Assembly (NCBI GenBank): GCA_963758915.1
Contig: CAVWXH010000003.1
Coordinates: 160,001 to 224,000 of the forward strand
Source: an uncultured Methanomicrobiales archaeon
Lineage (GTDB): Archaea; Halobacteriota; Methanomicrobia; Methanomicrobiales; Methanospirillaceae
Direction: 5' to 3'
Length of the DNA stretch: 64,000 bases
Each line of letters opens with the position of its first letter. The stretch's first letter is position 1. The translations under genes and the position numbers were made by a program. Under the pieces are notes generated by a model. That model made no database searches. It was not told the DNA's origin and saw only the letters and a list, made by a program, of their open reading frames with translations. Positions 658 to 22,606 of the stretch are shown in pieces.

Positions 658-1608
658 TTAAGCACCGCCTCTCCAAATTCCTTTGTCCCAGACAGATCCT
701 CCAAGGTCCCGGGTCTTTATCCCCTTTGAAAATACCGTCTGAATCGCACATTCGATCGCATCCGACCCTGGATTATCCCCTGCATGCCGGAGCAGGAGCG
801 CTGCACTCCGCAATGCTGCAACAGGGTTTGCCAGATTCCGGCCCGCAATATCAGGAGCACTGCCGTGGACCGGTTCAAAAAATGCATGGCGTTCCCCGAT
901 GTTGGCACTGGGCAGCATACCAAGGCCACCGACGAGATACGCAGCAACATCCGACAGGATGTCCCCGAACATGTTCGTCGTCACGATAACATGGTACGAT
1001 GCCGGGTGGAGGAGCACATCCAGGCACAACGCATCAATGAGCCGGTCATTGCAATTCACCCCGGCAACCGACGCTTCGTGGAGGCATATGTCCCTGAAGA
1101 ATACGTCCGATTTCATCACGTTGGCTTTGTGGCCGATGGTCAGGGTCCTGCTCCCTGCAAGGTTGCAGGCAAACCGGGCGATACGCTCACATTCGTGGCG
1201 GGTAATGACCCGGAGCGTCGTCGCCCTGTCCACCCCCACCTCTTCGATCCCCGAGTAAAGACCTTCGATGTTCTCCCGCACAATGGTGATGTCAAACCCG
1301 TTGCCCTTCACCGGCCGTACATTGGCAAAGAGGTCGAGATCTTTTCGTATCCGAAGCAGCACGCTGCGGTAATCGGGAGCAGAAGGTGTTGTTATCGCAC
1401 CAAACAGGATGGCATCTGCCGATTTGAGCAATTCAAAGTCATCATCTCCCATCGCCTCGCCCGTCCGCTCCCACCGCTCGTACCCGACTTCCACCGGGAA
1501 TAATTCATACTCAGGGTGGAGCAGGGATAGCACATCCCTTGCAACGGGTATTACTTCCTTCCCGATACCGTCCCCGCATACGATTGCAACACTTCTGACG
1601 TTCGCCAT
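658..1608 (-). CDS. aksF: Isocitrate/isopropylmalate-family dehydrogenase, probable (homo)n-isocitrate dehydrogenase AksF
   Basis: GDGIGKEV, DLFANVRP, IVRENIEGLY, GHKANV, NMFGDILSD and FFEPVHGSAPDIAG motifs. ATG at 1608 has GGAG upstream. The C-terminus (GTKEFGEAVLKEL) is shifted by an indel near 700, so the end is approximate. Assigned as aksF rather than leuB from operon context. Confidence 0.8.
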   Translation of the reverse strand: MANVRSVAIVCGDGIGKEVIPVARDVLSLLHPEYELFPVEVGYERWERTGEAMGDDDFELLKSADAILFGAITTPSAPDYRSVLLRIRKDLDLFANVRPVKGNGFDITIVRENIEGLYSGIEEVGVDRATTLRVITRHECERIARFACNLAGSRTLTIGHKANVMKSDVFFRDICLHEASVAGVNCNDRLIDALCLDVLLHPASYHVIVTTNMFGDILSDVAAYLVGGLGMLPSANIGERHAFFEPVHGSAPDIAGRNLANPVAALRSAALLLRHAGDNPGSDAIECAIQTVFSKGIKTRDLGGSVWDKGIWRGGA

Positions 1609-2409
1609 TATTTCGATCTCCAGCCGTGTTACGAGGCCGTCGATGGCCTTGAGAATATCACGCGGCGTTGCACCCCAGTGGACAACCGCCCCGAATTTTC
1701 CATTATACCTGCCAATCCCGCCCCGTTCCTTCTGGCAGCACCGGGTGATGAACGGTTCTTCTGTGACAGTTCCGATGGGACAGATGTCGATCAGGGTAAA
1801 ATCATCCCCGTAACATTCCTGGTATATCCCGGAACTGGCCCTGCAGCCTGCTACCGTTTCACCACCAACCATCGGGTCTGCATCAAGAGTCCTCGGGAAA
1901 CCTGCCGCCCTGCAGGGGTGGACATCGGCACCGGTCTGCGAAATATCGGTGATATGGTGCACGAACCTGATATCAAGTTCCCCGAACAGCCCGATCGCCT
2001 CCAGCTCCTTTACCCGGTCTGACAGGACCGGGAGCGGGGGCTTCACGTCGTAGACATGAACGGTCAGCAGTGTTGCAGGGTCAGGGTCGAGCACGAATGT
2101 CACGTGTTCGTCGTGCCCGGAAAAGATAGTGCAGCGTCGCCCTGATTCCGTTGCAAGCCGGATGAGCCCGGCCCGGTTGGCGATATTGACCTGTTCCGGG
2201 TACCAGGTGACCTCATCCGCGGACGCTATCACTTCCTCGGCGATCACCTTCCTCATCAGCCCTTTTTCGGCGGGATCGGTTGTCACCCGGACGATCTCAT
2301 GGCCGGTACCAGTCTTGTGGATGAGGTACTGCGAGAGAAAATACACGCGTCTCCCGCACGGTTCCGTATCCGCATAGCCGATGTCTTTGTATTCACGGGG
2401 GAAGATCAT
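1608..2409 (-). CDS. Uncharacterised Cys-rich protein (about 265 aa)
   Basis: N-terminal part of ORF 658-2409 (VYFLSQYLI, HPCRAAG, AGC, ICP, TRCCQKER, VVHWGA). Its ATG overlaps the aksE stop (ATGA). A one-base shift near 1625 gives ...WRSK-TAA overlapping the aksF ATG (TAATG). Confidence 0.75.
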
Positions 2410-2879
2410 GGCTTCTTTGACCTCCAGAGGGGAACAAGCCCGCCTGCAAGAAGGATCTCCTTCATCCTTGCAGACAGGGGCCGGATTGGAGCACTGGAGC
2501 CTCCGCAGGAAACAACCCCTTTGTCAAGGTCAATGATCACCTCGTCGCCATCGGCACAGTGGCATTCCCCTTCAACAACCGGGAGTCCCACGTTTATGGC
2601 GTTACGGAAGAATATCCGGGAGAAGGAGGGGGCGACAACAGCCTGCAGCCCTGCTTCTTTAAGGGCAACGGCGGCCTGTTCGCGTGAAGACCCGCACCCG
2701 AAATTCCTGCCTGCAACAATGACCGATCCTTTGAGCCTGGCCCCGAGCGACGGGTCGAGGTCTTCGAATACATGTTCGACCCAGACCGTCCGGTCCTTTG
2801 TCCGGAGATACCTCCCGGCGATGATGACGTCGGTGTCGATATCGGGCCCAAGGCAGATCGCCTTCCCTTCAATGTGCAT
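2406..2879 (-). CDS. aksE: Homoaconitase small subunit (LeuD family)
   Basis: DIDTDVII and NFGCGSSREQA motifs. The flexible-loop sequence YLRT is the homoaconitase-type signature (IPM isomerases typically have YLVY-like loops). Confidence 0.85.
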   Translation of the reverse strand: MHIEGKAICLGPDIDTDVIIAGRYLRTKDRTVWVEHVFEDLDPSLGARLKGSVIVAGRNFGCGSSREQAAVALKEAGLQAVVAPSFSRIFFRNAINVGLPVVEGECHCADGDEVIIDLDKGVVSCGGSSAPIRPLSARMKEILLAGGLVPLWRSKKP

Positions 2880-2882
2880 GAT

Positions 2883-4091
2883 TCACGCCTCCGGGACGGT
2901 CAGGACGCCGGTCAGGGCGCTTGCTGCCGCCGTTGCAACCGAGGCGAGATACACGCTGCCACCAATACCCATCCGGTTCGTAAAATTACGGTTTGCCGTC
3001 GAGAGGCAGACTTCACCTTCCCCGATTACCCCCATATGTGCCCCGAGACAGGGGCCGCAGCCGGGTGTGCCGATCGTGCAGCCTGACGAGATAATGGTCG
3101 AGAGGACACCCGTATCGGCTGCTTTGCGGAGGACTTCCGCCGAGGACGGGATTACGATGGTCCTCACGTTCACCTTCTTACCCCGGACGATTGAAGCAAA
3201 ACGTTGTAAATCTTCAAAACGCCCGTTTGTGCAGGTACCGACAAACACCTGGTCAAGGGGCAGCCCTTCAAGCGATTCAACGGGTCTTGCCGAATCGACC
3301 CGTGGCGGCACGGCAACCACGGGGACAAGGTCCGACAAGTCAATCGTTATCTCTTTTCCATACGAGCAGTGCTCAGGTACCTGGTTTTCCACCCGGTGGC
3401 CGAACTGCAGGAGGTACTGGCGGGTCACGTCATCGGCATAAAAGAGGCCGGTTTTTGCACCGGCTTCAGTTGAAAGATTTGAAATGGTGAGCCGGCCTTC
3501 CATGGAGAGCGATTTCGTCCCGTCCCCGACATACTCTAATGCCTGGTAGGACGCTCCCTCCATGCCGAGCTGGGAAATAACCGTAAGGGCCAGGTCTTTC
3601 GCCTCAACCGGATAGTTCAATGTCCCTGACAGGTGGATGCCGATTGTTTCGGGAACACGGAACCACGTAGAACCCGATGCCCAGATGGCAGCCATATCGG
3701 TCGCCCCTACACCTGTTGCAAACGCACCGAATGCACCAAGGGTACAGGTGTGGGAATCGGCCCCGACCACGACCTCCCCGGGGAGCACCTCCCCTTCACC
3801 CATGAGCTGGTGACAGACACCGCCCCCGATATCGGAGAAATGGATCCCGTGTGACCTTGCAAACTCCCTGAGCTCCTTCTGGAGCGTCGCGGTAGTGCTG
3901 TTGTTTGCCGGGACGATGTGGTCGAAGAGGATATACAGTCGTTCCGGGTGCGCCGGGCCCGGGCAACCCATCTCCTTCCAGGCTTCGAGGGTGAGTACAC
4001 CGGTACCGTCATGCACGTATGCCCGGTCAACCTGTACATCGACATAGTCCCCGGCCCCTGCACCGAGGATCCGTTCGGAAAGCGTCCTCAT
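2883..4091 (-). CDS. aksD: Homoaconitase large subunit (LeuC family)
   Basis: FDHIVP, GVCHQ, GADSHTCTLGA, GTCTNGR, PGCGPCLG and STANRNF aconitase motifs. Confidence 0.85.
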   Translation of the reverse strand: MRTLSERILGAGAGDYVDVQVDRAYVHDGTGVLTLEAWKEMGCPGPAHPERLYILFDHIVPANNSTTATLQKELREFARSHGIHFSDIGGGVCHQLMGEGEVLPGEVVVGADSHTCTLGAFGAFATGVGATDMAAIWASGSTWFRVPETIGIHLSGTLNYPVEAKDLALTVISQLGMEGASYQALEYVGDGTKSLSMEGRLTISNLSTEAGAKTGLFYADDVTRQYLLQFGHRVENQVPEHCSYGKEITIDLSDLVPVVAVPPRVDSARPVESLEGLPLDQVFVGTCTNGRFEDLQRFASIVRGKKVNVRTIVIPSSAEVLRKAADTGVLSTIISSGCTIGTPGCGPCLGAHMGVIGEGEVCLSTANRNFTNRMGIGGSVYLASVATAAASALTGVLTVPEA

Positions 4092-5221
4092 GCCAGTGAC
4101 CCCTCTCCCTGGACTCTCTTAATCAGTTCAAGAAGGCGTTCGGGAGTAACCACCGTTTTGTGCTCCCCTTCAGTTTTCACCAGTTCAAGCACACGGCATA
4201 CCTGGCCTTTCGAAAGCTGGAACCCGAGTGCAGATACCACGTATTCGAGCGCCTTCGACCCGGTATGTTTCCCGAGAATGAATTTACGCTCGCCACCGAC
4301 CATTTCCGGGGAGAAATATTCGTACGTTTCCGGGTCCTGGAGAATTGCAGCGATATGGATGCCACTCTCGTGGGAAAACGCATGGGCACCCACGACCGGC
4401 TGGGTCCTTGCCACCGGAATATTGGATGCTTTTTCAACCAGTTTTGAGAGGTTCTGCAGGTGGGTGAGGTCATACCGTTCTACCCCTGCTTTCATGCGGA
4501 GGGCTACGAGAACAGACTCAAGGGGAGCGTTCCCCGCCCGTTCGCCAATGCCATTGACCGTTGTATGGAGCTGGAACGCCCCGGCCTCTGCAGCAGTAAT
4601 CGTGTTCGCCGCAGCGAAACCCATGTCGTTATGGCAGTGTGCACAGACCGGGACACGGACGGTTGATACGAGGTCCCCCATTACCTCGTACATCTCAAGC
4701 GGGGTGAGGCACCCGACCGTATCCGCAAAAGACAGGAGGTGGGCACCGTGGTCTTCACCCTGGCGAAATACTTCCTTTAAGAAACCACGGTCTGTCCGGG
4801 AGGCATCTTCAGCGGCAAACCGGACTGCAATCCCATGGTCGTGGACGAATTCAACGATACCAAGTGCCGCCGAAAGGACCTCCTCCCTTGGTTTTTTGTA
4901 TTTATGCCTGATATGGAGGTCAGAAGTTGCGATGAAAATACTGACCAGGTCTACATCGCAGTCTATCGCACACTCGGCGTCCTCTTTCCGGGCCCTTGCA
5001 AGGCAACAGACCCGTGCATCAAGGCCCATCGCTGCGATCTCGGTCACGCACTTTTTTTCTTCTGCTGATACGATGGGAAACCCGGCCTCGATTACTTCGA
5101 CCCCGACATCGTCGAGGACGCGGGCAATCGACTTCTTTTCATCGCAGGTGAATGATACACCCGGCGTCTGTTCTCCATCCCGGAGCGTCACATCGCAGAT
5201 TTCAACATTCCACGGTTTCAT
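4088..5221 (-). CDS. aksA: Homocitrate synthase-family enzyme AksA
   Basis: DVTLRDGEQTPG, HCHND, GIGERAGNA, AFSHESGIH and LGKHTG motifs. About 377 aa, with no LeuA regulatory domain. Confidence 0.85.
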   Translation of the reverse strand: MKPWNVEICDVTLRDGEQTPGVSFTCDEKKSIARVLDDVGVEVIEAGFPIVSAEEKKCVTEIAAMGLDARVCCLARARKEDAECAIDCDVDLVSIFIATSDLHIRHKYKKPREEVLSAALGIVEFVHDHGIAVRFAAEDASRTDRGFLKEVFRQGEDHGAHLLSFADTVGCLTPLEMYEVMGDLVSTVRVPVCAHCHNDMGFAAANTITAAEAGAFQLHTTVNGIGERAGNAPLESVLVALRMKAGVERYDLTHLQNLSKLVEKASNIPVARTQPVVGAHAFSHESGIHIAAILQDPETYEYFSPEMVGGERKFILGKHTGSKALEYVVSALGFQLSKGQVCRVLELVKTEGEHKTVVTPERLLELIKRVQGEGSLA

Positions 5222-6499
5222 GGTGTCTCCCTTCCGGACAGTTCCCTTCAATAATCACAACTACCGGCGATTCCCGGCGGACGAGAGTTTCCCGGAGGCG
5301 GGCTTCATCATCAGCCCGGCAGATTACGGGGTTGGCCCAGGCAATATAGGGGAGGATATCGTAGGCCTGCTGCCCACCGGTCATCCCCATGCAGTTGTTT
5401 TTCATTATTATGCACAGCAACGGGGTTTTTTTCTCAAACACGTCGATCAACGCAGGGAGCCCGGAATGAAGCAGTGCATAATCGCCGGTAAGTGCAACGC
5501 CCGTGCTTTTCGCAGCCACCCCGATTGAAGACCCCATGCCATAACTGACAAGGCTGGTTTTAAACGGCGGGTTCATGCAGAGGACGCAGCACCCTGCATC
5601 ACAGGTGACCAGAAATCCCCCGTTCGTCCAGGATCTTTATTGCCAGGATAAAGGGGCAGTCCTTGCAGAATGACCGGTAAAAACCACGGTCTTCCCTTCG
5701 CTCCGGTTCCGTGTATGCCGGGGGGTACCATCCTCCGGTGTTCCCTGACAAACGGTCTCCCAAGTTCTTTTACCTCTTTTAACCTGCCGAGCCCGCCGTA
5801 GGAGGATACACGGTAATTATTCTGGATATCTCCCCGGGAAGGGACTGGTTTATCCCCGGCCCCTGCAGCACCAACGAGGGCGGTTGTCCCGTTCATCCGG
5901 TTCAGTGGCGATTTTTCAGACCACTCACACATCGGTCCGAGCAGGTTTCTCGCCCGTTCAACCCTCCCTTTCATGGTGAGGTGTAACGGGGCAATCGTCC
6001 CGGTTTTTCCCTTTCTTTCGGCGTTCCCGGGGGTTACTTCTGCTTCGAGAAGGTCCGGGGTAAGGCGGAGGATCACGATCCTTGAAAATGATTCCGACGC
6101 CCTGAATGCCTCTTCTACGGCTTCGTGGATGTTATCCGGGCCGGGTTCTATTACCGGTACCTCGGCGAGTTCCCCGTAATATCTCGAGTCCTGGGCATTC
6201 TGGGACCCCTCGGCCACCGGGTCATCCCCGGCTACAATGACCACACCGGCGATAAGTCCCTGGGTAGTCGCCTCGACAAACGGGTCTGCACAGGCATTCA
6301 ACCCGACATTTTTGAGGATTACTGCGGCTCTCCTGCCGGAAAGCGAATCGCCAAGGGCATATTCTACTGCCACCTTCTCGTTTATGACCGATTCAGCACC
6401 TGTTTTTTCCAGCACCCCGCTGACAGGAAAACCGGGTACCCCGTAAAACCGGTCTGCGGCAGCAAGGAGTGCCTTCGTTATTGCATCTTCACCTTTCAT
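5202..6499 (-). CDS. Stand-alone thiamine-diphosphate enzyme, IorA-like (split by indels)
   Basis: GVPGFPVS, INEKVAVE, KNVGLNACADP and GDDPxxxGSQNAQDSR in the N-part. An alternate frame near 5650-5690 gives RSFCKDCP. The C-part has GMGSSIG and the ThDP motif GDYALLHSG...NNCMGMTGGQ. No ferredoxin domain and no iorB. Confidence 0.8.
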
Positions 6500-7464
6500 A
6501 GCGGCTCTCCCGGGACGAGGTCACAACCCCTGCACCGGACACACATGGTCAGGGCGTTCCGGGGGTCCAGTCCTTCATCCTGTAATGCTTTTTCATGATA
6601 TCCGGCAATCAGGAGCATCCGTTCAGCACCCGGCCTGCTGGAGCCGGAAAATCCTGCAATCGGGTTCAATGGCCTGATAACAGGAATTACCCCCATTGTT
6701 GTGAGTTCCCTGATACATGCATCCATCTCTTCATCCGTCTCTCCAAGGCCGAGAATTACGTTTGAAAACACGTGGCCGCGTCCGAATAACTCTACTGACT
6801 TCTGAAGGACCCGGATAATGAGATCACGGTCATGGCCCGGGCATAATGAGGCAAACAATTCCGGAGTGGCGCATTCAAGGTTGAACTTTACTTCCTTTAC
6901 CCCGAGTCCGTGCAGGCGGCCGGGTGTTTGTTCTGTCGGGTAAATTGAGACCCCGATCGGGAGACCGAACACTGCCAGGTCACGGACAACCTCGCAGACA
7001 TACTCTTCTTCCTCGTAAATGTCGGAATATACACCGCTTGTTATGGAGATTGCATCAATCCGGTCTTTTATTCCATCGACCATGGCATGGATTTCCTCGA
7101 TTGATTTTCTCCGCTTTGGCAGGCGCGGGACATTGCAGTAACGGCAATTGAAGATACAGCCGCTGCTGACGGTAATATAGGCCTGTTCCGGGCAGTGCAG
7201 GCCAACCGGGTCAAGCCGGCCGGGCAGCACAATTTCACCATAACGGAGTGTTGCAGCCCCTTCACCTGCATGGATAATTTCAACGGGGCTTGTCTCTGAA
7301 CGTGCAAACCGCACCCTCATACCATCGGATGAAAAGAAGACAGACCCTTCTCCCCCTGCGCCCGGACCTGCGGATGAACTCGAAAGGTAAGGAGTCGCAT
7401 CTTTTCCGGTGAGCCGTGCTTTTCCAACGGCAAGGAGGGCTGCTTTTAATTCCTGTCCGTGCAT
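6496..7464 (-). CDS. Radical SAM protein, biotin-synthase-related, with C-terminal CxxCxxC
   Basis: GCIFNCRYC (CxxxCxxC), SNVILGLGETDEE and a terminal CVRCRGCD. ATG at 7464 is preceded by GAGGAGG. The stop overlaps the ThDP gene start. Confidence 0.85.
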   Translation of the reverse strand: MHGQELKAALLAVGKARLTGKDATPYLSSSSAGPGAGGEGSVFFSSDGMRVRFARSETSPVEIIHAGEGAATLRYGEIVLPGRLDPVGLHCPEQAYITVSSGCIFNCRYCNVPRLPKRRKSIEEIHAMVDGIKDRIDAISITSGVYSDIYEEEEYVCEVVRDLAVFGLPIGVSIYPTEQTPGRLHGLGVKEVKFNLECATPELFASLCPGHDRDLIIRVLQKSVELFGRGHVFSNVILGLGETDEEMDACIRELTTMGVIPVIRPLNPIAGFSGSSRPGAERMLLIAGYHEKALQDEGLDPRNALTMCVRCRGCDLVPGEPL

Positions 7465-8340
7465 AAGGTCAGGGCCTCCTCGTATCTTCGTGTAAAACGG
7501 AATTGCCGCTACTGCACCAATGATCCCACGACCATTCCTCACGATCCGCAGGTTGATATCATCGATATCCAGGATCAATCCCTGCGTCACTTCGCCACGT
7601 TTCACCTTCCACGCGAATTCCAGGAGGTTTGAGGGGTCAAACCCCGTGTATACCGCCATGCCGGTATCTTCAGAAAGGGTATAGCGGTCCAGCAGTCCTG
7701 CAAAATGATCGACCAGGCGGGCAGGGTCCGATGATGCAAATTCGGCAACAATGCTGACACAGTTTTTTGTCCGGTACGGGACAGGGTACAACTGCACAAT
7801 CGTATGCGACAGGTAGCGGGACTGCTGGTCCTCAACAGCCCTCGCAATATTATGGACGAGTGTCCAGGTTGCCCCCTGTTCAGGTGTATCGGTATCGTCC
7901 ACGCCAATCAGGACACGCTGTCGCCTTGGCAGCCAGACTGTTGAACCGGCACGTTTTCCACCCCCGGAAGGGTCATTTGTACTTCGCGTAACACCCTGTG
8001 CATAGGAACGGCATATGGACGCACCGACACCACCGCCGCCAAGCCCTACGTAAGATACCCGGATTTCATCCTCATCAACGGAAACAGCACTTATTCCGGC
8101 CGGGAAATGTGAGCCCTCAAGTGCAAGGTCCGACTCCCCCGGGCGCAGCATGTACCGCATGGTCGGTCCGATATTCCTGGCAGAACGGACAAGCGGGCTC
8201 TGTGCATAATGGTGTTGTGCCCACATCGCACCCCCGGTACAATCGAAAAATTCGATCAGTTCGACACGTTCGCCGGCGGAATCCGCTACCGCGACAATCT
8301 GCGGGTACCGTATGATATACGGTTCAGGAAGGTTCACCAT
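7446..8340 (-). CDS. mmp11: Methanogenesis marker protein 11 (DUF1743/TiaS kinase-domain-like)
   Basis: IEFFDCTGGAMWAQHHY, GLGGGGVGASIC, IGVDDTDTPEQGATW, QLYPVPYRTKNC and GRGIIGAVAA motifs. Removing one A near 7487 gives ...PFYTRYEEALTLCTDRN-stop. Confidence 0.8.
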
Positions 8341-9283
8341 AGAGACCTGCCGCTTCGATGCCCCTGTTGGCCCATAATACAGACCCTAATGCACCAATTC
8401 TGCCCTTTCTTCCTGCAGTGTCGATAAACCTGATCCCGGCAGATGCCGCAATATCCTCGGCATCCTTCAGGCTTACGATCTCGGTCTTTATCCTCCGGCA
8501 GGCACCGTTCATTATTTTCGGGAATTCAATACCCCGGTAGTAGGCAATACCCGTGTCGTCACTGAAAGAAAACTCCTCGATATAATCGCGGACATAGGCA
8601 AGAAGTGCATCAACCGACCCGGGTCTGACGGCAAAATTCAACGCAGACCCCACGCAGTTGGTTGTTTTTTCCGGGACCCGCGGGTTGAGCTGGATCAGCC
8701 TCATATTAAGAAATTCCACGCCTGGTACCGGGCACTGTTCACCGCATTTCAGGGCAAGGACCCAGGTGGCTCCTTTTTCAGATGTGTCAGTGTCATCGAT
8801 CCCGATGGTGACCTTCTCGTATAGCGGTGAAAAAATACGTACCCGGTTCACCCTCGCACCGCCGACTACCAGGTCCTCTTCAGTCGGGTATTCAGCCCGG
8901 GTCACACCCGGTGCCTGCGGAAGGCAGGCAGCAATACCAAGACCGGCACCGGCAATACCTGCCCAGGATGTGACGACCTCGTCACCCTGCACCTCGACAC
9001 CTTCGAGGGCCTGGCCCCCGATATTCTCCCCGGCAGCCCCGAAATTCGCCTGAAATGAGCCGATTCGTGCCAGCATCCTCATTTCAGTGCCTTCAACACG
9101 GGCAGAGACTGTGGCCCCTTTTGCACGGATGCGGTTCATCGCGTCCCACTCGATAGGTCCCCTCGCATGGCACTGCTCGATGATCTCTGCAAGGCCGGCA
9201 CCCTTGTCCACCATCACGAGAAACCGCCGGGAAAAGAGTGATCCATACTTCGTTTTTATTTCTTCGGGCTTTTTGACAATCAT
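8324..9283 (-). CDS. Second, divergent Mmp11-like protein
   Basis: GIAGAGLGIAAC, IGIDDTDTSEKGATW, QLNPRVPEKTTNC and GRIGALG motifs. Same architecture as the downstream gene and overlaps its start. Confidence 0.75.
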   Translation of the reverse strand: MIVKKPEEIKTKYGSLFSRRFLVMVDKGAGLAEIIEQCHARGPIEWDAMNRIRAKGATVSARVEGTEMRMLARIGSFQANFGAAGENIGGQALEGVEVQGDEVVTSWAGIAGAGLGIAACLPQAPGVTRAEYPTEEDLVVGGARVNRVRIFSPLYEKVTIGIDDTDTSEKGATWVLALKCGEQCPVPGVEFLNMRLIQLNPRVPEKTTNCVGSALNFAVRPGSVDALLAYVRDYIEEFSFSDDTGIAYYRGIEFPKIMNGACRRIKTEIVSLKDAEDIAASAGIRFIDTAGRKGRIGALGSVLWANRGIEAAGLYGEPS

Positions 9284-9320: not shown

Positions 9321-9334
9321 ATATATTATATAAG
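9321..9334 (-). promoter_or_regulatory. Probable TATA box of the mmp11-aks operon
   Basis: Minus strand reads CTTATATAATATAT about 40-50 nt upstream of the 9283 start. A T-tract after the ftr stop (9367-9380) separates it from ftr. Confidence 0.5.
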
Positions 9335-9380: not shown

Positions 9381-10268
9381 TTAAAGGATTTTGTGGAGTT
9401 CGAACTTGAACGGCCCGAGCGTGCCACCATAGTTACCGGCGCTGATGAATTTTACGCCTTTTACCATGCAGGCGGCACGGATACCTGCTGCCATTGCCTC
9501 TGCAACTGCTGCTTCGGATACACCGTCAATGACGATTTCGAACACGCCATTAATGCCGTCCGGGATCTTGCTGTCCGGGACCTTGCTCTTCAGGGATGGA
9601 CAGTACAGTTCGTTTGTGCTGGCATTCATGAATTTATACTTCTTGCTGCCTACTTTCGAGCCGCTTCCGACAATCCCACCCGGGAATGACGTGATAACGC
9701 CACAGACTTCATTGACCGCAGCCACGGCGGCCTGTGCACCGACCAGTGCTGACATGGTGCTGTCACCCATGATAAAGAAATTGCCACCTGCAACACCCTT
9801 CACGACGCCAATCTCTTCTTCTGTCAGGAAATCTCCACCCATCAGGGGAATTGCCCATACACTCCGGTCTCCGACCTTGGTCTGGTATTCGTAGCCGTCA
9901 CCAAAGAAATGGAGTTTCATCGGGAGTTTTTCTTCGCAGTCAGTGATACCGTTAAACGCTGCGGTGGTTGGTGCAGTAAGCACACACTCTGCGATACGCT
10001 CAATCAGCTGCTCTTTTAATTTTTTCTTGCTCGGGTGGACAATAAGAATACCATATCCAGGCCTGCCGTCAGGGGTCTGCTGCGGGGGGACATACTGGTC
10101 AATACCTGCTTCTGCCGGACATGCGATAACCGATGTCCCGAACCCGGTCGCTTCGACTGCTGAACTGTATGCGAGTTCCTTCGTTGCAGCGGTAATGATT
10201 ACAGAGCTGACCCATGCGGGAAACGCTTCTGCAAACGTGTTGTCAATCTTTACACCGTTAATTTCCAT
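9381..10268 (-). CDS. ftr: Formylmethanofuran-tetrahydromethanopterin N-formyltransferase
   Basis: MEINGVKIDNTFAEAF, ATGFGTSVIACPAEAGI, TPDGRPG, FPGGIVGSGSKVGS and SAGNYGGTLG motifs. Confidence 0.97.
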   Translation of the reverse strand: MEINGVKIDNTFAEAFPAWVSSVIITAATKELAYSSAVEATGFGTSVIACPAEAGIDQYVPPQQTPDGRPGYGILIVHPSKKKLKEQLIERIAECVLTAPTTAAFNGITDCEEKLPMKLHFFGDGYEYQTKVGDRSVWAIPLMGGDFLTEEEIGVVKGVAGGNFFIMGDSTMSALVGAQAAVAAVNEVCGVITSFPGGIVGSGSKVGSKKYKFMNASTNELYCPSLKSKVPDSKIPDGINGVFEIVIDGVSEAAVAEAMAAGIRAACMVKGVKFISAGNYGGTLGPFKFELHKIL

Positions 10269-10780
10269 ATTCAAATACCTCGGACAAAGAATGTACCATG
10301 GCCGTGATAGAATAAATTTTCTAAGTGGTTTTCAAATTGTTGACAGGAGGACGGTAGTACATACGTGGCGGAAGTTACTCACGGATGGACGGGATAAGAT
10401 AACGGGTAATCCTTCGAACATGCAGATTACCACTATTTCTCCCGATAAATCAGCCCAGGATAACCCCGAAATAATCACAAATTATGCTGTAATTTTTGTT
10501 TTTACGCGATATTTCATCTGTAAATACCTCATCACAAAAAATCGAGTCGCATCCAATCATAAACCATATAATGCTATACACTAAAGGGCATAGTTTGCCA
10601 CCTGCCCGGGTTACAGGAAACGAAAGAAGTGAGAGAAACGCCGGGATGCCCCGGTTCGTCGAAGTATCACCGGGGTCTGGCTAAAGCCAGGGATTCCACA
10701 GAACCTGGAGTACCAGCCAACTATTATTACGGGCGACGGTGACCAGTGTCCTGTCACAATTATTTCCGTGGATTGTGAAG

Positions 10781-11692
10781 ATGGCAGGAGATCAGAAGTT
10801 ACCGGGAGACCCTTATGAAGCAGGCGACAGTAATGGACTGGCACATCACCTGATTGCCATCTTTGCCGTGGCAATTGTTATCCTGATAATTGCAGGAGGA
10901 ATTCTTCTCAGCGAGGCAGGGAAAAATCCGCCGCCGGTTCCGGAAAAAACTACCGGGGAACGTGATGTCCTTTACCAGGTATCAACCATTGATGCACTGG
11001 TACTGGGTGCATATGAGGGGGTGCAACCTGCGGGCGAAGTGGAAAAACATGGGAATTTCGGCATCGGAACATTCGATGCACTTGACGGGGAGATGATTGC
11101 CGTTGATGGCCGGTACTACCAGGTAACATCAGATGGTGCAGTCCGTGAGGTTGACCCCTCGGTGATGGTGCCGTTTGCAACCGTTACATTTTTTGACAAC
11201 GATTCGACTATTACCGTAAGCGGGAGCAGGAATTTGTCCACCTTCACAAACGGGATTGATAAAGGACTCCCTTCGAAAAACCTGATCTATGCGGTCAGGG
11301 CTGACGCTACGTTCCCTGAAATGGTCGTCCGGGCCATTCCAAGGCAGGAAAAACCATATCCTCCGCTTACCGAGGCAGCCACCCACCAGGTGGTTACCAG
11401 GCTGGAGAATACATCAGGGACCATTGTGGGGTTCTACCTTCCTGCATTTATGAAAGGGGTCAATATGCCCGGGTACCACCTCCACTATATTTCATCAGAC
11501 AGGAAAAGCGGAGGACATATCCTTGATTTTACCCCGCCTGATACCCCGGTCATGGTGATAATTGATCAGACCCCGGATTTTTCCATGTCTGCCCCCACAA
11601 CAGGTGATTTCGCAGAGATGAACTTTTCCGGGGATGTTTCAGCAGGATCTCATCCAGGTCGAACGTTAAGCGGAAATGAAGTCCCGGGATAG
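10781..11692 (+). CDS. budA: Alpha-acetolactate decarboxylase with N-terminal transmembrane helix
   Basis: LYQVSTIDAL, GNFGIGTFDALDGEMI, PFATVTFF and GYHLHYIS...GGHIL (Zn ligands). Hydrophobic segment LIAIFAVAIVILIIAGGILL. The extreme C-terminus may be frameshifted. Confidence 0.85.
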   Translation: MAGDQKLPGDPYEAGDSNGLAHHLIAIFAVAIVILIIAGGILLSEAGKNPPPVPEKTTGERDVLYQVSTIDALVLGAYEGVQPAGEVEKHGNFGIGTFDALDGEMIAVDGRYYQVTSDGAVREVDPSVMVPFATVTFFDNDSTITVSGSRNLSTFTNGIDKGLPSKNLIYAVRADATFPEMVVRAIPRQEKPYPPLTEAATHQVVTRLENTSGTIVGFYLPAFMKGVNMPGYHLHYISSDRKSGGHILDFTPPDTPVMVIIDQTPDFSMSAPTTGDFAEMNFSGDVSAGSHPGRTLSGNEVPG

Positions 11693-15334: not shown

Positions 15335-17449
15335 ATGGCTGAAAGAAAAACCAAGAAAGAAACAGCGTCCAAGAAAGAGACCACCGCTGCAGTAAAGAAG
15401 CAGGCACCAGCGAAAGCCGCAATCGGAGAACAACCCGAAGGCAAGAAAGAGGCACGGATTGGGGTTTTCATCTGCCACTGTGGTACAAACATTGCCGGTT
15501 CAATGGATATCAACGCAGTACAGGAATATGCAAAAACCATTCCGAATGTCGCCTATGTTGACAACTACAAGTACATGTGTTCGATGCCCGGGCAGGCTGT
15601 GATTGATAAGGCAATCCATGATAACAAGCTCACCGGTGTCGTCGTCGCTGCATGTTCACCACGTCTCCACGAACCAACGTTCAGGACGGCAACCAAGGAA
15701 GGTGGCCTCAACCCGTTCAAGTTCGAGATGGCAAACATCCGCGAGCAGAACTCGTGGGTGCACATGCATGACCAGGAAGGGGCAACAGACAAAGCAAAGG
15801 ACGCAATCCGCATTGCCGTTGCAAAGGCATCGCTCCTTGAAGACCTCTTCCCGAAGAGTGTTCCCGTTGAGAGGGCCGCAATGGTCGTCGGTGCAGGTGT
15901 TGCAGGAATGCAGGCCGCTCTCGACCTGGCAAACGCCGGTATCAAGACCTACCTGATCGAGAAGACCCCGACCATTGGTGGTCGCATGTCCCAGCTCGAC
16001 AAGACGTTCCCGACCCTCGACTGTTCACAGTGTATCCTTACACCGAAAATGGTGGATGTCGGAAGGAGCGAGAATATCGAGCTGATGACGTATTGCGATG
16101 TTGAATCCGTAGAAGGGTACATCGGTAACTTCGATGTCACCATCAGGAAGAAAGCCCGTGGTGTCCTTACTCCCAAAGAAGCAGAGGCAAAGGGTATTGT
16201 CGGTGGTGGCTGCAACGGTTGTGGTGACTGTGAGACTGCATGCCCGGTCGTCCAGCCAAACACCTTTGAAGAAGGAATGAAGCCACGAAAGGCAATCTAT
16301 ATCCAGCACCCGCAGGTCGTCCCCCTGATTTACACCATTGACAAAGAGTCCTGTATCAAGTGTGGAATCTGTGTCACGGTATGCGGTAATGAAAAGAAGG
16401 CTATCGACCTCGACCAGGAAGATGAATTCGTCAAGGTAAAGGTAGGTACAGCAATTCTTGCAACAGGGTATGATATCTTCCCAATCGAGAACAAGACCGA
16501 GTGGGGCTACAAGAGGTTCGAAAACGTCATTACCAGCCTCGAGTTCGAACGCCTGATCTGTGCATCCGGTCCGACCGGCGGCCACATGGTCCGCCCGAGT
16601 GACGGGGTCGCACCAAAGAAGGTCGCATTCCTCCTCTGTGCAGGTTCAAGAGATAATACCGGGATCGGCAAGCCCTATTGTTCAAGGTTCTGCTGCATGT
16701 ATTCACTGAAACATGCCCACCAGCTCATTGAAAAGATGCCCGGTTGCCAGCCCTATATCTTCTACATGGATATCCGGTCCTTCGGTAAGATGTACGAAGA
16801 GTTCTATTACCGTATCCAGGACGAGGGTGCAAAGTTCATCCGTGGCCGTGTCTCGAACATTCTCGAAGACCCGGTATCAAAGAACCTCATGGTGTTTGCA
16901 GATGACACCCTGCTTGACCGGCCGATGAAACTCGAAGTAGACCTTGTCGTGCTTGCTGCAGCAGTACAGCCCGCAGCCGACACGAACCGGACCAGGAAAC
17001 TCTTCGGTGTATCCTGTTCCATGGACGGATGGCTCCTTGAAGCACACCCGAAACTGAACCCATGCGGTACCACCACAGCCGGTGTTTTCCTTGCAGGGGC
17101 CTGCCAGGGACCAAAGGATATCCCTGACACGGTTGCTTCAGCAGAAGGCGCTGCATCAGCAGCAAGTATCCCGATCCATACCGGACACGTTGAACTTGAA
17201 CCGTACTTCGCCCAGTGTATCGATGAGAAATGCGCAGGATGCGGTATGTGTGTCAATTTATGCCCGTACACCGCACTTGCACTCGTAGAAAAAGATGGAA
17301 GAAAAGTCATGCAGGTTACAGAAGCGAAATGTAAAGGCTGCGGTACCTGCGGTGGATTCTGCCCTGGTGGCGCAATCTGGATGAACCACTTTGCAACACC
17401 ACAGATTATTGCTCAGATTGATGCATTCCTCCTCGGAGGCGAGCAGTAA
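15335..17449 (+). CDS. hdrA: Heterodisulfide reductase flavin/Fe-S subunit A
   Basis: RIGVFICHCGTNI, ACSPRLHE, GAGVAG, LDKTFPTLDC, YCSRFCCMY, GPKDIPD and ferredoxin motifs. GGAGG upstream. Confidence 0.97.
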   Translation: MAERKTKKETASKKETTAAVKKQAPAKAAIGEQPEGKKEARIGVFICHCGTNIAGSMDINAVQEYAKTIPNVAYVDNYKYMCSMPGQAVIDKAIHDNKLTGVVVAACSPRLHEPTFRTATKEGGLNPFKFEMANIREQNSWVHMHDQEGATDKAKDAIRIAVAKASLLEDLFPKSVPVERAAMVVGAGVAGMQAALDLANAGIKTYLIEKTPTIGGRMSQLDKTFPTLDCSQCILTPKMVDVGRSENIELMTYCDVESVEGYIGNFDVTIRKKARGVLTPKEAEAKGIVGGGCNGCGDCETACPVVQPNTFEEGMKPRKAIYIQHPQVVPLIYTIDKESCIKCGICVTVCGNEKKAIDLDQEDEFVKVKVGTAILATGYDIFPIENKTEWGYKRFENVITSLEFERLICASGPTGGHMVRPSDGVAPKKVAFLLCAGSRDNTGIGKPYCSRFCCMYSLKHAHQLIEKMPGCQPYIFYMDIRSFGKMYEEFYYRIQDEGAKFIRGRVSNILEDPVSKNLMVFADDTLLDRPMKLEVDLVVLAAAVQPAADTNRTRKLFGVSCSMDGWLLEAHPKLNPCGTTTAGVFLAGACQGPKDIPDTVASAEGAASAASIPIHTGHVELEPYFAQCIDEKCAGCGMCVNLCPYTALALVEKDGRKVMQVTEAKCKGCGTCGGFCPGGAIWMNHFATPQIIAQIDAFLLGGEQ

Positions 17450-17901
17450 TGGCAGGACATGAAGCTCCCCCGAAACGCGAGGAAGGCGCATTTAAGCCCA
17501 AGATCATCGGGATCCTCTGCAACTGGTGTTCGTATGCCGGTGCAGATCTCGCCGGTGGTGGCCGTATCCAGTACCCGCCTGATGTCCGGATTGTCCGTGT
17601 CATGTGCACGGGACGTGTGGACCCGCTCTTCATCATGAAGGCATTCACAGACGGTGCAGACGGGGTATTGATTTCAGGCTGCCACTTCGGTGACTGCCAC
17701 TACCTCGAAGGGAACTATAAGGCTGCGAAGAGGTTGTTCCTTGTCAAGAACCTGTTGAAAAACATCGGTCTTGAGGACAAGAGGTTAAGAATGACCTTTG
17801 TTTCTGCATCAGAAGGAGCAAAATGGGGTAAGGTTATCACTGACGTCGTAAAGACAGTGGAAGAACTTGGCCCAAGCCCACTGGCAGAACTGACGAAATA
17901 A
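17449..17901 (+). CDS. mvhD: [2Fe-2S] MvhD adaptor subunit
   Basis: LCNWCSYAGAD, VMCTGRVD and GCHFGDCHY motifs. Confidence 0.95.
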   Translation: MAGHEAPPKREEGAFKPKIIGILCNWCSYAGADLAGGGRIQYPPDVRIVRVMCTGRVDPLFIMKAFTDGADGVLISGCHFGDCHYLEGNYKAAKRLFLVKNLLKNIGLEDKRLRMTFVSASEGAKWGKVITDVVKTVEELGPSPLAELTK

Positions 17902-18018
17902 TAGCATAACAATTCCGGCTCAAGGGTCCGGCAGGAACTGGTGACAGAGGGGGGAAAGACCTCTGCCGCAAAAGTCTGCCTTATAATTGAGCTGGATAAT
18001 AAAATAAGAGGAAAAAAT

Positions 18019-19736: not shown

Positions 19737-19738
19737 TT

Positions 19739-21450: not shown

Positions 21451-21459
21451 GTGTAGAAC

Positions 21460-22261: not shown

Positions 22262-22301
22262 TCTTTTTCACCAAAAGAGCGCACTGCAAATTCATACAAT
22301 T

Positions 22302-22468: not shown

Positions 22469-22606
22469 GAGTATATGAATATACAACTGTCCCATGAGGG
22501 GACGTGCAATAGTGACCGTCAACCTGCATCCGTGAGCCGTGGCGCTCATACACTCTCAGTGAACGTATTGTACAATTTGGTAAACGTAAATTAACGGAGG
22601 AAAATT

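What the first reader, a model, noticed from the sequence alone, without database searches (positions are those of the whole stretch)
658..9283. Candidate complete coenzyme B biosynthesis operon, including the unassigned late steps
Seen: nine minus-strand genes with overlapping or near-abutting starts and stops behind one TATA box: mmp11-like, mmp11, radical SAM, ThDP enzyme, aksA, aksD, aksE (YLRT loop), Cys-rich unknown, aksF. The operon sits beside ftr, hdr and mcr; Hdr and Mcr use CoB. Established: AksADEF elongate 2-oxoglutarate to 2-oxosuberate. The remaining CoB steps are decarboxylation, sulfur incorporation to 7-mercaptoheptanoate, ATP-dependent coupling to threonine and O-phosphorylation; to my knowledge these lack firmly assigned genes. 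Inference: four of the five uncharacterised genes supply those chemistries (a 2-oxoacid decarboxylase fold, a possible sulfur-inserting radical SAM enzyme, two ATP-using kinase folds).
Basis: partly seen in the sequence, partly recalled or inferred. Interest (0 to 1): 0.92.

Follow-up and report, generated by a model that had tools for sequence, protein, structure and literature searches.

The report
Candidate coenzyme B biosynthesis operon
A methanogen operon joins the four known coenzyme B chain-building genes to five uncharacterised genes whose folds fit most of the missing later steps, which turns an old gap in methane biochemistry into a short list of testable genes.

Summary
The cluster is real and lies where stated. 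It holds nine minus-strand coding regions: Mmp11-like, Mmp11, radical SAM, ThDP enzyme, AksA, AksD, AksE, DUF7714 and AksF. They sit behind a TATA-like box, beside ftr, hdr and mcr. As assembled, four single-base indels fuse two gene pairs and break the ThDP gene. The same defect hits mcrB, so these are most likely sequencing errors.

The linkage is strongly conserved. All 65 Methanomicrobiales loci with enough flank keep the colinear cluster. Other Mcr-bearing families keep sub-modules: Mmp11-ThDP, ThDP-Aks-DUF7714 and AksE-DUF7714-AksF.

New here:
- DUF7714 is a full-length homologue of XcbA, the bacterial thioaldehyde-to-thiol reductase of coenzyme M synthesis. All five invariant cysteines are kept.
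- Mmp11 carries the TiaS kinase fold, including the DDTD motif and the Thr18-equivalent.
- The ThDP enzyme is IorA-like, with four invariant cysteines and no ferredoxin insert.

Against a "complete" operon:
- The radical SAM role is unsupported.
- Mmp11-like is patchy.
- Mmp11, ThDP and DUF7714 were not found in several Mcr-bearing families.
- Mmp11 occurs in some Mcr-less genomes and sometimes sits beside ycaO-tfuA.

Verdict: partly supported, high interest.

The parts
9326..9333 (-). TATA-like box (TTATATAA) in the 97-nt gap between the ftr stop and the first ATG. GGTGA lies 4 nt before the ATG.
   Evidence: Read directly. No transcript data.
8324..9283 (-). Mmp11-like paralogue (319 aa) with TiaS-type kinase domain and DDTD motif.
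   Evidence: TIGR03280 200.1 bits, under the 255.8 cut-off. PF22641 TiaS_TCKD 43.3 bits. Found in 42 of 68 Methanomicrobiales loci with enough upstream flank.
7446..8340 (-). Mmp11 (methanogenesis marker protein 11). Its last 16 codons and stop (7446-7448) lie in another frame because of an extra T in the run 7494-7497.
   Evidence: TIGR03280 330.6 bits, over the cut-off. Junction read. Separate ORF in relatives. TiaS fold.
6496..7464 (-). Radical SAM protein (322 aa). It has CX3CX2C plus five more invariant Cys, including a C-terminal CxxCxxC.
   Evidence: PF04055 56 bits. Invariant Cys. Tree.
5202..6499 (-). IorA-like ThDP enzyme without ferredoxin insert. It is broken in this assembly by extra bases in a C6 run (5720-5725) and a G5 run (5617-5621).
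   Evidence: Intact 423-439 aa in relatives. Four invariant Cys and the GD...N motif. Atlas structure match to IorA clusters.
4088..5221 (-). AksA-type homocitrate synthase. The likely start is the ATG at 5221, as in relatives.
   Evidence: HMGL-like 267.7 bits and HCS_D2 80.5 bits. Start by comparison.
2883..4091 (-). AksD/HacA-type large subunit of homoaconitase.
   Evidence: NF001614 490.9 bits. HacA_Meth 418.8 bits, under the 550 cut-off.
2406..2879 (-). AksE/HacB-type small subunit with YLRT loop.
   Evidence: HacB2_Meth 166.3 bits, under the 230 cut-off. Loop read. A second LeuD-type copy lies elsewhere in the genome.
1608..2409 (-). DUF7714 protein, a homologue of XcbA. In this assembly it is fused in frame to AksF by one extra base just upstream of 1612. 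The native stop is probably the TAA at 1608-1610, overlapping the aksF ATG.
   Evidence: PF24830 294.1 bits. NF052538 XcbA family 79.9 bits, under the 150 cut-off. Alignment with Xaut_5070. Junction read.
658..1608 (-). AksF-type homoisocitrate dehydrogenase.
   Evidence: Iso_dh 282.5 bits. AksF2_Meth 282.8 bits, under the 540 cut-off.
9381..10274 (-). ftr, the conserved upstream neighbour. Probably not part of the operon, since a T-run and the TATA-like box lie between.
   Evidence: FTR and FTR_C domains. Beside the cluster in 67 of 68 loci with enough flank.

Best explanation
This is a coenzyme B (7-mercaptoheptanoylthreonine phosphate) biosynthesis operon of a Methanoregulaceae methanogen.

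Shown by homology: AksA, AksD/E and AksF are the 2-oxoacid elongation set that builds 2-oxosuberate.

Inferred steps:
1. The IorA-like ThDP enzyme removes C1 of 2-oxosuberate to give the C7 aldehyde level (7-oxoheptanoate, or an enzyme-bound equivalent). Its likely [4Fe-4S] site may serve electron transfer.
2. The DUF7714 protein takes the sulfur adduct of that aldehyde (thioaldehyde or hemithioacetal) to the thiol 7-mercaptoheptanoate. This mirrors its homologue XcbA, which reduces sulfoethanethioaldehyde to coenzyme M.
3. Mmp11 uses ATP through its TiaS-type kinase domain. It would activate the carboxylate for amide formation with threonine, phosphorylate the threonine hydroxyl, or both.

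Mmp11-like is a lineage-limited paralogue with a helper or split function. The radical SAM protein works with Mmp11 in a way not yet clear; sulfur supply is only one guess.

My odds for the single assignments: ThDP as 2-oxosuberate decarboxylase 0.6; DUF7714 as thiol-forming reductase 0.5; Mmp11 as ligase and/or kinase 0.45; radical SAM as sulfur inserter 0.2.
For: Linkage:
- The cluster is colinear in 65 of 65 Methanomicrobiales loci with enough flank. The radical SAM gene is present in 64 of 65. It is also complete in 8 of 8 loci of the window's order fetched by handle.
- In other families the gene order is rearranged but the links are kept. ThDP-AksA-AksD-AksE-AksF-DUF7714 occurs in L106, L107, L116 and L015. 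AksE-DUF7714-AksF occurs in L108, L109 and L115.
- By coordinates, Mmp11 lies next to ThDP in f7 16 of 16 and f23 6 of 6. In f14 they lie within 4 kb in 7 of 10.
- ThDP is thus the bridge between Mmp11 and aks.

Profile:
- In the 66 genomes of f1-f7, f10, f14 and f23, G000 included: Mmp11 over its cut-off 65, radical SAM 65, ThDP 66, DUF7714 66.
- Across 151 genomes: Mmp11 is in 68 of 83 McrA+ and 7 of 68 McrA- genomes. DUF7714 is in 63 of 83 and 3 of 68.
- In genus g15 the 2 McrA+ genomes have Mmp11 over its cut-off and the 3 McrA- ones do not.

Chemistry:
- DUF7714 aligns over its full length with Xaut_5070, the gene just upstream of phosphosulfolactate synthase on pXAUT01. All five invariant Cys are kept.
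- XcbA is an Fe-S protein that reduces a thioaldehyde to CoM (PMC9457059, passages).
- The Mmp11 model (pLDDT 87.1) matches TiaS 3amt at E 1e-7 over 150 columns.
- DDTD and the Thr aligned with residue 18 of the TiaS-like chain 3u02 are invariant in 12 of 12 Mmp11.
- ThDP orthologues keep GD...N and four Cys in 12 of 12.

Against the biotin rival: bioB, bioF and bioD were not found over their cut-offs in this 94% complete genome.
Against: - CoB is needed wherever Mcr works, yet Mmp11 over its cut-off is missing from 15 of 83 McrA+ genomes (all of f12 and f20, and the McrA+ genomes of f15). DUF7714 is missing from 20 of 83. Some of these are fragmented genomes of 85-99% completeness.
- DUF7714 and the radical SAM family do not ring in M. 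jannaschii, which has Mmp11. At least two of the proposed steps must therefore have other enzymes there.
- Mmp11 over its cut-off occurs in 7 genomes with no McrA match. Five of them belong to families f8 and f17, which mostly or wholly lack McrA.
- In f10 and in L123, Mmp11 sits beside ycaO-tfuA, the McrA thioglycine genes, not beside ThDP.
- A 2025 preprint proposes Mmp16 and L-ASST for the sulfur step of CoB (10.1101/2025.02.10.637553, passage).
- The ThDP enzyme is oxidoreductase-like, while the pathway as I recall it from White's labelling work needs a non-oxidative decarboxylation.
- There is no expression, genetic or enzymatic data.
- Class I methanogens and other phyla could not be sampled for synteny.
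Confidence: 0.55

Rival explanations
1. Split function. Only ThDP and DUF7714 belong with Aks and make 7-mercaptoheptanoate. Mmp11, with its radical SAM partner and Mmp11-like, serves another Mcr-linked task, such as a modification or maturation step of Mcr or of another cofactor. It lies here only because methanogenesis genes cluster.
For: - Mmp11 lies beside ycaO and tfuA in L021, L022 and L123.
- A radical SAM gene follows Mmp11 directly in 5 of 8 loci of other families, three of them from genomes with no McrA match. The pair therefore travels without aks.
- In f10, Mmp11 is apart from the ThDP-aks-DUF7714 cluster in 11 of 11 genomes.
- The window itself is a methanogenesis neighbourhood with ftr, hdr, fwd and mcr.
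Against: - Mmp11 is directly next to ThDP in f7 16 of 16 and f23 6 of 6, where aks lies elsewhere. The Mmp11-ThDP tie is therefore not a by-product of one large cluster.
- An Mcr-modifying role fits the Mcr-less holders no better.
- The TiaS chemistry (carbonyl activation for amine attack, Thr phosphorylation; details recalled) matches the two unassigned ATP steps of CoB.
Confidence: 0.25
2. The extra genes turn Aks products into something other than CoB, such as pimelate for biotin by oxidative decarboxylation of 2-oxosuberate, a lipoate-like thiol, or a lysine-pathway product.
For: - The ThDP enzyme is of the oxidoreductase (IorA) type with four invariant Cys.
- The radical SAM protein's nearest named families include LipS2, BioB and lipoyl synthase, though far under their cut-offs.
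- I recall that 2-oxosuberate is also held to be the biotin precursor in methanogens.
Against: - bioB, bioF and bioD are not found over their cut-offs in this genome.
- DUF7714 and the ThDP orthologue are confined to Mcr-bearing families in the 151 genomes searched. DUF7714 occurs in 3 of 68 McrA- genomes, all three from Mcr-bearing families.
- Mmp11 is a curated methanogenesis marker.
Confidence: 0.07
3. Conserved neighbourhood without a shared pathway: gene order inherited within related lineages, with no functional tie.
For: Kin share gene order. 80 of the loci come from one order.
Against: The links survive rearrangement of order and strand in four other families. Genes overlap by 1-20 nt. 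The link partners differ by lineage but always connect to aks or to each other.
Confidence: 0.05

Closest known systems
XcbA of Xanthobacter autotrophicus Py2 (bacterial coenzyme M pathway)
   Same: Full-length homology with the DUF7714 protein at 25% identity. All five Cys invariant among methanogen DUF7714 are kept. Both lie in operons that make a terminal-thiol coenzyme. XcbA reduces a thioaldehyde to the thiol (PMC9457059, passages).
   Different: The score is under the NCBIfam XcbA-family cut-off (79.9 against 150). The substrate would be a C7 carboxylate, not a C2 sulfonate. The XcbD/XcbE-type cysteine route that supplies the thioaldehyde in bacteria is not in this operon. The predicted fold has no PDB match at E 0.001 or better.
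TiaS (tRNA-Ile2 agmatidine synthetase)
   Same: The Mmp11 C-terminal half has the TCKD plus ferredoxin-like domains, the DDTD motif and the Thr18-equivalent. TiaS couples ATP use to replacement of a carbonyl oxygen by an amine and phosphorylates its own Thr (recalled; dual RNA and protein kinase per PMC11938285).
   Different: No match beyond TiaS profile positions 2-151 of 422, so the tRNA-binding part is absent. Mmp11 has its own 140-aa N-terminal domain without a PDB match. A true TiaS-like gene lies elsewhere in the genome (C10).
IorA, alpha subunit of indolepyruvate:ferredoxin oxidoreductase (2-oxoacid:ferredoxin oxidoreductase superfamily)
   Same: Same domain order and fold: TM 0.84-0.87 to IorA clusters for the f7 orthologue. 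The ThDP motif and a four-Cys pattern are invariant.
   Different: There is no Fer4 insert. The score is far under the IOR_alpha cut-off. No IorB-type gene is in the cluster. The Methanomicrobiales form also lacks about 80 residues of the middle domain.
AksA, AksD/E and AksF of Methanocaldococcus jannaschii (characterised CoB chain elongation; recalled)
   Same: Same four families and the YLRT loop of the small subunit.
   Different: Scores are under the NCBIfam equivalog cut-offs built on class I methanogens. Here the genes are clustered with five further genes.
ComDE, Mmp16 (ComF) and L-ASST: decarboxylation and aldehyde-to-thiol steps of coenzyme M and homocysteine synthesis in methanogens
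   Same: Same logic: a 2-oxoacid is decarboxylated by a ThDP enzyme, then the aldehyde is converted to a thiol (10.1101/2025.02.10.637553 and PMC12713407, passages).
   Different: Different protein families. The preprint suggests that Mmp16 and L-ASST may themselves serve CoB, which competes with the DUF7714 assignment.

Membership tests
Aks 2-oxoacid elongation set (AksA, AksD, AksE, AksF) | Homocitrate synthase, aconitase-type large and small subunits, and isocitrate/isopropylmalate dehydrogenase domains | tested here: met
   Pfam HMGL-like 267.7, HCS_D2 80.5, Aconitase 304.9, Aconitase_C 66.2, Iso_dh 282.5 bits.
Aks 2-oxoacid elongation set (AksA, AksD, AksE, AksF) | Score over the NCBIfam equivalog cut-offs for methanogen HacA, HacB and AksF | tested here: not met
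   418.8 under 550; 166.3 under 230; 282.8 under 540. Subfamily models for the large and small subunits are passed; LEU3_arch for AksF is not (350.6 under 409.8).
Aks 2-oxoacid elongation set (AksA, AksD, AksE, AksF) | YLRT loop in the small subunit (recalled marker of homoaconitase specificity), and a separate LeuD-type copy for leucine synthesis | tested here: met
   YLRT read. Two matches in G000, the second at C16 with 47% identity.
Methanogenesis marker protein 11 (TIGR03280) | Score over the curated cut-off of 255.8 bits | tested here: met
   The gene at 7446-8340 scores 330.6 bits. The upstream paralogue at 8324-9283 scores 200.1 and does not pass.
TiaS | TCKD plus ferredoxin-like domain fold, with DDTD motif and Thr18-equivalent | tested here: met
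   3amt E 1e-7 over 150 columns, rmsd 2.7. PDB profile hits 3u02, 3amt and 4rvz. D148, D149, T150, D151 and T158 are invariant or nearly so in 12 Mmp11.
TiaS | C-terminal tRNA-binding domains and a score over the TiaS equivalog cut-off of 600 | tested here: not met
   19.7 and 39.9 bits, matching only profile positions 2-151 of 422. It may work like TiaS but is not a member.
XcbA family (thioaldehyde reductase of bacterial CoM synthesis) | Full-length homology with conserved cysteines | tested here: met
   Alignment A5 with Xaut_5070 keeps C166, C189, C210, C224 and C225. tblastn hits only CoM-type plasmid loci, in 6 records. Locus context.
XcbA family (thioaldehyde reductase of bacterial CoM synthesis) | Score over the NCBIfam cut-off of 150 bits | tested here: not met
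   79.9 bits, E 1.9e-22. The Pfam DUF7714 cut-off of 25 is passed with 294.1 bits.
XcbA family (thioaldehyde reductase of bacterial CoM synthesis) | Fe-S cluster and thioaldehyde-reducing activity | not testable with these tools
   Needs purified protein.
IorA / 2-oxoacid:ferredoxin oxidoreductase | Pyrimidine-binding and pyrophosphate-binding domains, GD...N motif, four-Cys site next to ThDP | tested here: met
   IOR_alpha N and C parts. TPP_enzyme_C. G330, D331, N359 and C270, C273, C295, C412 are invariant in 12 of 12. That the four Cys bind a cluster is inferred.
IorA / 2-oxoacid:ferredoxin oxidoreductase | Two-cluster ferredoxin insert, and a score over the IOR_alpha cut-off of 650.9 | tested here: not met
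   No Fer4 hit. 109.9 and 34 bits for the two window pieces; 327 bits for the intact f7 orthologue. Atlas neighbours without Fer4.
Sulfur-inserting radical SAM enzymes (LipA, LipS2, BioB, MiaB/RimO) | CX3CX2C plus further conserved Cys for an auxiliary cluster | tested here: met
   C103, C107 and C110, plus C91, C208, C308, C311 and C314, are invariant in 13 of 13. An auxiliary cluster is inferred and is not specific to sulfur insertion.
Sulfur-inserting radical SAM enzymes (LipA, LipS2, BioB, MiaB/RimO) | Score over any of these families' cut-offs | tested here: not met
   LipS2 53.5 under 270; BioB 22.3 under 225; lipoyl synthase 22 under 203. RimO in the PDB only at E 0.005.

The most novel reading that the evidence does not exclude
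The operon holds the whole missing gene set for CoB and includes new chemistry.
- An Fe-S/ThDP enzyme of the oxidoreductase type, an XcbA-like reductase and a radical SAM partner together turn a 2-oxoacid into a terminal thiol. This could run through an acyl- or thioacyl-level intermediate rather than a free aldehyde.
- The TiaS kinase fold, known only from tRNA modification, has been recruited as a small-molecule amide synthetase and threonine kinase.
- XcbA-type thiol formation would then be shared between archaeal CoB and bacterial CoM synthesis.
Probability: 0.3. Interest if true: 0.9.

Novelty: new variant of a known kind. Interest (0 to 1): 0.8.

Why it matters
CoB is one of the two substrates of methyl-coenzyme M reductase, so every biological methane molecule depends on it. 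As far as my searches show, the genes for its last steps are still unassigned decades after the chemistry was outlined: decarboxylation, thiol formation, coupling to threonine and phosphorylation.

This cluster and its conserved sub-modules give named candidates for most of these steps, and each can be tested with one enzyme assay. Confirmed genes would:
- complete the parts list needed to rebuild Mcr function in other hosts;
- give new targets for methane mitigation;
- improve the reading of metagenomes, showing who can make CoB and who must obtain it;
- add new activities to the TiaS, XcbA and IorA families.

Tried and rejected
- Gene fusions as biology: rejected. Mmp11-radical SAM and DUF7714-AksF are single frames only in this assembly. 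Relatives have separate ORFs. Searches for longer fused relatives of Mmp11 and DUF7714 found none, which is weak evidence. The junctions show single extra bases.
The same kind of frameshift breaks mcrB and other core genes nearby.
- Biotin route: bioB, bioF and bioD are not found over their cut-offs.
- Third Mmp11-like paralogue as the missing homoserine kinase: not supported. thrB is absent over its cut-off, but the proposed homoserine kinase TIGR02535 is present.
- PDB sequence search with the ThDP enzyme: no hit. With the radical SAM protein: only RimO and TM_1862 at E 0.005.
- Fold search of the DUF7714 model: nothing at E 0.001 or better.
- Conserved neighbours of the radical SAM copies that are not next to Mmp11: none shared widely. 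ThiI-like and Cys/Met PLP genes occur beside it in a few loci only.
- Complex prediction for Mmp11 with the radical SAM protein: no verdict (score 0.00, controls not run). This counts neither for nor against binding.
- The search for related loci in genome contigs returned only Methanomicrobiales, because the best 80 are ranked by likeness to the first row.
- Paper searches found no assignment of Mmp11, the ThDP enzyme, the radical SAM protein or DUF7714 to CoB. They found no link of XcbA to methanogens either. The search library lacks most subscription journals, and supplements were closed and not asked for. Supplementary transcript tables of PMC11619418 could bear on co-regulation.

Full report
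WHAT IS THERE

Table 11 gives eight minus-strand ORFs between 658 and 9283. Pfam and NCBIfam read them as follows:
- 8324-9283: an Mmp11-like protein. TIGR03280 scores 200.1 bits, under the cut-off of 255.8. It has a TiaS_TCKD domain.
- 6496-8340: a 614-aa frame holding Mmp11 (330.6 bits) followed by a radical SAM domain.
- 5573-6499 and 5202-5576: two pieces of a ThDP enzyme, like the N and C parts of IorA.
- 4088-5251: AksA-type synthase.
- 2883-4091: AksD/HacA.
- 2406-2879: AksE/HacB, with the YLRT loop.
- 658-2409: a 583-aa frame holding DUF7714 followed by AksF.

ftr lies just upstream on the same strand (9381-10274). Between its stop and the first ATG lie a T-run, a TTATATAA at 9326-9333 and a GGTGA. 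T-rich tracts follow aksF. Further on are a polyferredoxin, HdrC/B/A-like genes, fwd-like genes and mcrB, mcrG and mcrA.

THE ASSEMBLY IS DAMAGED, NOT THE OPERON

In three relatives (L006, L007, L009) the same stretch holds separate ORFs that overlap or abut. The ThDP gene there is one ORF of about 423-439 aa.

In the window:
- The conserved C-terminal tail and stop of Mmp11 lie one frame off, after a T4 run at 7494-7497.
- The ThDP gene changes frame at a C6 run (5720-5725) and again at a G5 run (5617-5621).
- The DUF7714 tail with its TAATG stop/start overlap lies one frame off, just upstream of 1612.

I ran a screen with proteins from 10 relatives' loci against 70 kb around the window. It found like frame changes in other genes. 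mcrB is read in three frames at 84-96% identity (22607-23602, 23601-23855, 23857-23919), and its ORF stops at position 144 of 249 of the MCR_beta model. An organism cannot live on a broken mcrB, so I read all of these as sequencing or assembly errors. That comes to roughly one per 2 kb in the 23 kb that the screen covered. The true layout is then nine genes.

WHOSE GENOME

The genome held (G000) has 2.38 Mb in 18 contigs and is 94% complete. The 80 public loci nearest to a relative's Mmp11 (first row of A1, L007, of the window's family) carry titles of Methanoregula, Methanoregulaceae, Methanolinea, Methanoculleus, Methanospirillum and other Methanomicrobiales. The nearest rows in the radical SAM tree are from the window's own family. 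This is a Methanoregulaceae methanogen.

HOW WELL THE LINKAGE IS KEPT

Within Methanomicrobiales, 65 of the 80 loci had at least 7.3 kb downstream of Mmp11.
- All 65 have ThDP, AksA, AksD, AksE, DUF7714 and AksF in the same order.
- 64 have the radical SAM gene.
- Mmp11-like is present in 42 of 68 loci with enough upstream flank, and ftr in 67 of 68.

The 8 loci of the window's order fetched by handle agree.

Outside the order, the links persist while order and strand change:
- L015, L106, L107 and L116 hold ThDP, a divergently placed AksA, then AksD, AksE, AksF and DUF7714.
- L108, L109 and L115 hold AksE-DUF7714-AksF.
- A genome paper on Methanohalophilus mahii names aksE as Mmah_0127 and aksF as Mmah_0129 and says nothing of the gene between them (PMC3017947, passage). 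This fits the same triplet, although I did not see that gene.
- By the coordinates, Mmp11 is directly followed by the ThDP gene in f7 (16 of 16) and f23 (6 of 6). In f14 they lie within 4 kb in 7 of 10. In f10 they are apart in 11 of 11.

ThDP thus ties Mmp11 to aks, and DUF7714 sat next to aksE or aksF in every locus I examined.

WHO HAS THE GENES

I searched the same 151 genomes of the phylum with each query.
- McrA: 83 genomes.
- Mmp11 over its cut-off: 75.
- Radical SAM family at E 1e-15 or better: 75. I counted 73 after dropping two weak matches.
- DUF7714: 66.

In the 66 genomes of f1-f7, f10, f14 and f23 (G000 included), Mmp11 and the radical SAM protein are each in 65, and ThDP and DUF7714 in all 66. 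The cross-table gives:
- Mmp11: 68 of 83 McrA+ and 7 of 68 McrA-.
- Radical SAM: 68 of 83 and 5 of 68.
- DUF7714: 63 of 83 and 3 of 68.

Results against a simple 'CoB gene' reading:
- Every McrA+ genome of f12, f15 and f20 lacks Mmp11 over its cut-off.
- Every McrA+ genome of f8, f12, f15, f16 and f20 lacks DUF7714 and a clear ThDP orthologue.
- Four f8 genomes and one f17 genome have Mmp11 but no McrA match.
- Among named controls, M. jannaschii has Mmp11 but neither DUF7714 nor the radical SAM family. M. acetivorans rings for all three.

In f15, 16 of the 18 genomes with any match have only one LeuD/HacB-type gene, against two or three in the core families. A dedicated Aks set may be missing there too. 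That would make the joint absence a co-variation rather than a contradiction, but this is inference.

Mmp11-like (190-214 bits) is listed in 24 of 151 genomes: G000 and one other in f1, and all of f2, f5, f6 and f14.

WHAT THE PROTEINS LOOK LIKE

Mmp11:
- A model from 12 sequences has pLDDT 87.1.
- Its C-terminal 150 residues match TiaS structures (3amt E 1e-7, rmsd 2.7). The N-terminal 140 residues match nothing at E 0.001 or better.
- A profile of the 12 sequences hits 3u02, 3amt and 4rvz in the PDB.
- DDTD, and the Thr that aligns with residue 18 of the TiaS-like chain 3u02, are invariant or nearly so.
- I recall, without having read the paper here, that it activates a carbonyl oxygen of cytidine for attack by the amine of agmatine and phosphorylates its own Thr18 (Terasaka 2011).
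- These two reaction types are what the two ATP-dependent CoB steps need: an amide bond to threonine, and O-phosphorylation of threonine.

DUF7714:
- NCBIfam gives a sub-threshold, full-length hit to the XcbA family (79.9 bits, E 1.9e-22).
- tblastn against plasmids finds six records. They are from Xanthobacter autotrophicus Py2, Mycolicibacterium chubuense NBB4, Nocardioides JS614 and Methylocystis iwaonis.
- The Xanthobacter hit is Xaut_5070, directly upstream of phosphosulfolactate synthase and two lyase genes. That is the position of xcbA.
- In the alignment all five Cys invariant in methanogen DUF7714 are kept (C166, C189, C210, C224, C225).
- The XcbA paper reports a [2Fe-2S] protein that reduces sulfoethanethioaldehyde to CoM. 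It says XcbA resembled no known protein (PMC9457059, passages).
- The DUF7714 model (pLDDT 88.7) has no PDB match at E 0.001 or better.

ThDP enzyme:
- The f7 orthologue is structurally an IorA without the ferredoxin insert.
- Twelve orthologues keep GD...N and four Cys (CxxC, one about 22 residues on, and one near the C-terminus). I recall this pattern as the cluster next to ThDP in 2-oxoacid:ferredoxin oxidoreductases.

Radical SAM protein:
- It has CX3CX2C plus five more invariant Cys.
- Its best named families are 'variant rSAM' and MSMEG_0568, then LipS2 and BioB, all under their cut-offs.
- The tree shows one clade of 21 rows from Mcr-bearing families, with local duplications. A distant clade of four comes from f8, f16 and f17, and all four lie next to Mmp11.

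MOST LIKELY MECHANISM

1. Aks enzymes build 2-oxosuberate. The families are shown here; the function is established for M. jannaschii (recalled).
2. The ThDP enzyme removes C1 (inferred).
3. The resulting aldehyde takes up sulfur, and the XcbA homologue reduces the thio-adduct to 7-mercaptoheptanoate (inferred by homology and by its fixed place between aksE and aksF).
4. Mmp11 activates the acid and joins it to threonine, phosphorylates the product, or both (inferred from fold and from the Mmp11-ThDP link).

Mmp11-like cannot be a general step because it is patchy. The radical SAM protein is a steady partner of Mmp11 and follows it directly in 5 of 8 loci from other families. Nothing here shows what it does.

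RIVALS

The main rival keeps ThDP and DUF7714 with CoB but gives Mmp11 and its radical SAM partner another Mcr-linked task. Mmp11 lies beside ycaO-tfuA in L021, L022 and L123, and it occurs in Mcr-less genomes. A preprint proposes Mmp16 and L-ASST for the sulfur step of CoB. A biotin or lipoate reading is weak, since bioB, bioF and bioD are not found over their cut-offs and the genes follow Mcr.

KNOWN OR NEW

Nine paper searches found no assignment of these genes and no XcbA-methanogen link. The papers I opened speak only of the aksA-type gene as 'CoB biosynthesis' (PMC11619418 and PMC12713407, passages). Curated libraries still list Mmp11 as a marker protein and DUF7714 as unknown. Work in journals outside the library, or in supplements, may exist.

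The cluster itself is visible in many public genomes. What is new is the reading, above all the XcbA link and the modular conservation.

LIMITS

- There are no reads, transcripts or enzyme data.
- Only one phylum was sampled by handle. Class I methanogens are seen only through two named controls.
- Adjacency counts for f7, f10, f14 and f23 were made by eye from the coordinate tables.

Noticed in passing
window 15400-23900 (for example mcrB 22607-23919, hdrA-like near 17450, fwd-like 20050-20350): Frequent single-base frameshifts in core methanogenesis genes. mcrB is read in three frames at 84-96% identity to relatives. The assembly seems to carry about one indel per 2 kb in the 23 kb screened, so any ORF-based annotation of this genome will split or fuse genes.
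   Followed up: partly
L118:9105-11879 (G000:C3, outside the window) and L126, L131-L135, L137-L139, L141: A third Mmp11-like paralogue (TrmB-type wHTH plus Mmp11-like body, 374 aa) directly follows homoserine dehydrogenase and a 227-aa protein with no Pfam hit. This holds in G000 and in 10 of 16 loci fetched, from three families. It suggests a tie between this kinase fold and homoserine or threonine metabolism. A homoserine kinase role is not needed, since TIGR02535 is present.
   Followed up: partly
L021:7144-9008, L022, L123:11552-13419: Mmp11 lies beside ycaO and tfuA, the McrA-glycine thioamidation genes, in two f10 genomes and one McrA-bearing f8 genome.
   Followed up: partly
L019:8523-9560, L020:10383-11417, L023:10518-11573, L122:5321-6400, L123:10535-11572: A radical SAM protein of the MSMEG_0568/variant type (231-275 bits on TIGR04043, just under the cut-off, for the two scanned) directly follows Mmp11. 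Three of the five loci come from genomes with no McrA match. What an Mmp11-radical SAM pair does without Mcr is unexplained.
   Followed up: partly
window 10739-11692 (+): An alpha-acetolactate decarboxylase-family gene (264.5 bits) lies divergent from ftr. This is an unusual neighbour for methanogenesis genes.
   Followed up: no
plasmid records (NZ_AP027143.1, NZ_CP143315.1): XcbA/DUF7714 homologues on two Methylocystis iwaonis plasmids gave the best E-values of the plasmid search (3e-14 and 9e-14). A coenzyme M-type thiol pathway in a methanotroph would be worth a look.
   Followed up: no
L113:3973-5103 and 6617-7912; L117, L124, L125: The second radical SAM paralogue in some genomes lies near ThiI-like and Cys/Met-metabolism PLP genes, both sulfur-handling families. 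This is seen in up to 4 of 11 loci only.
   Followed up: no
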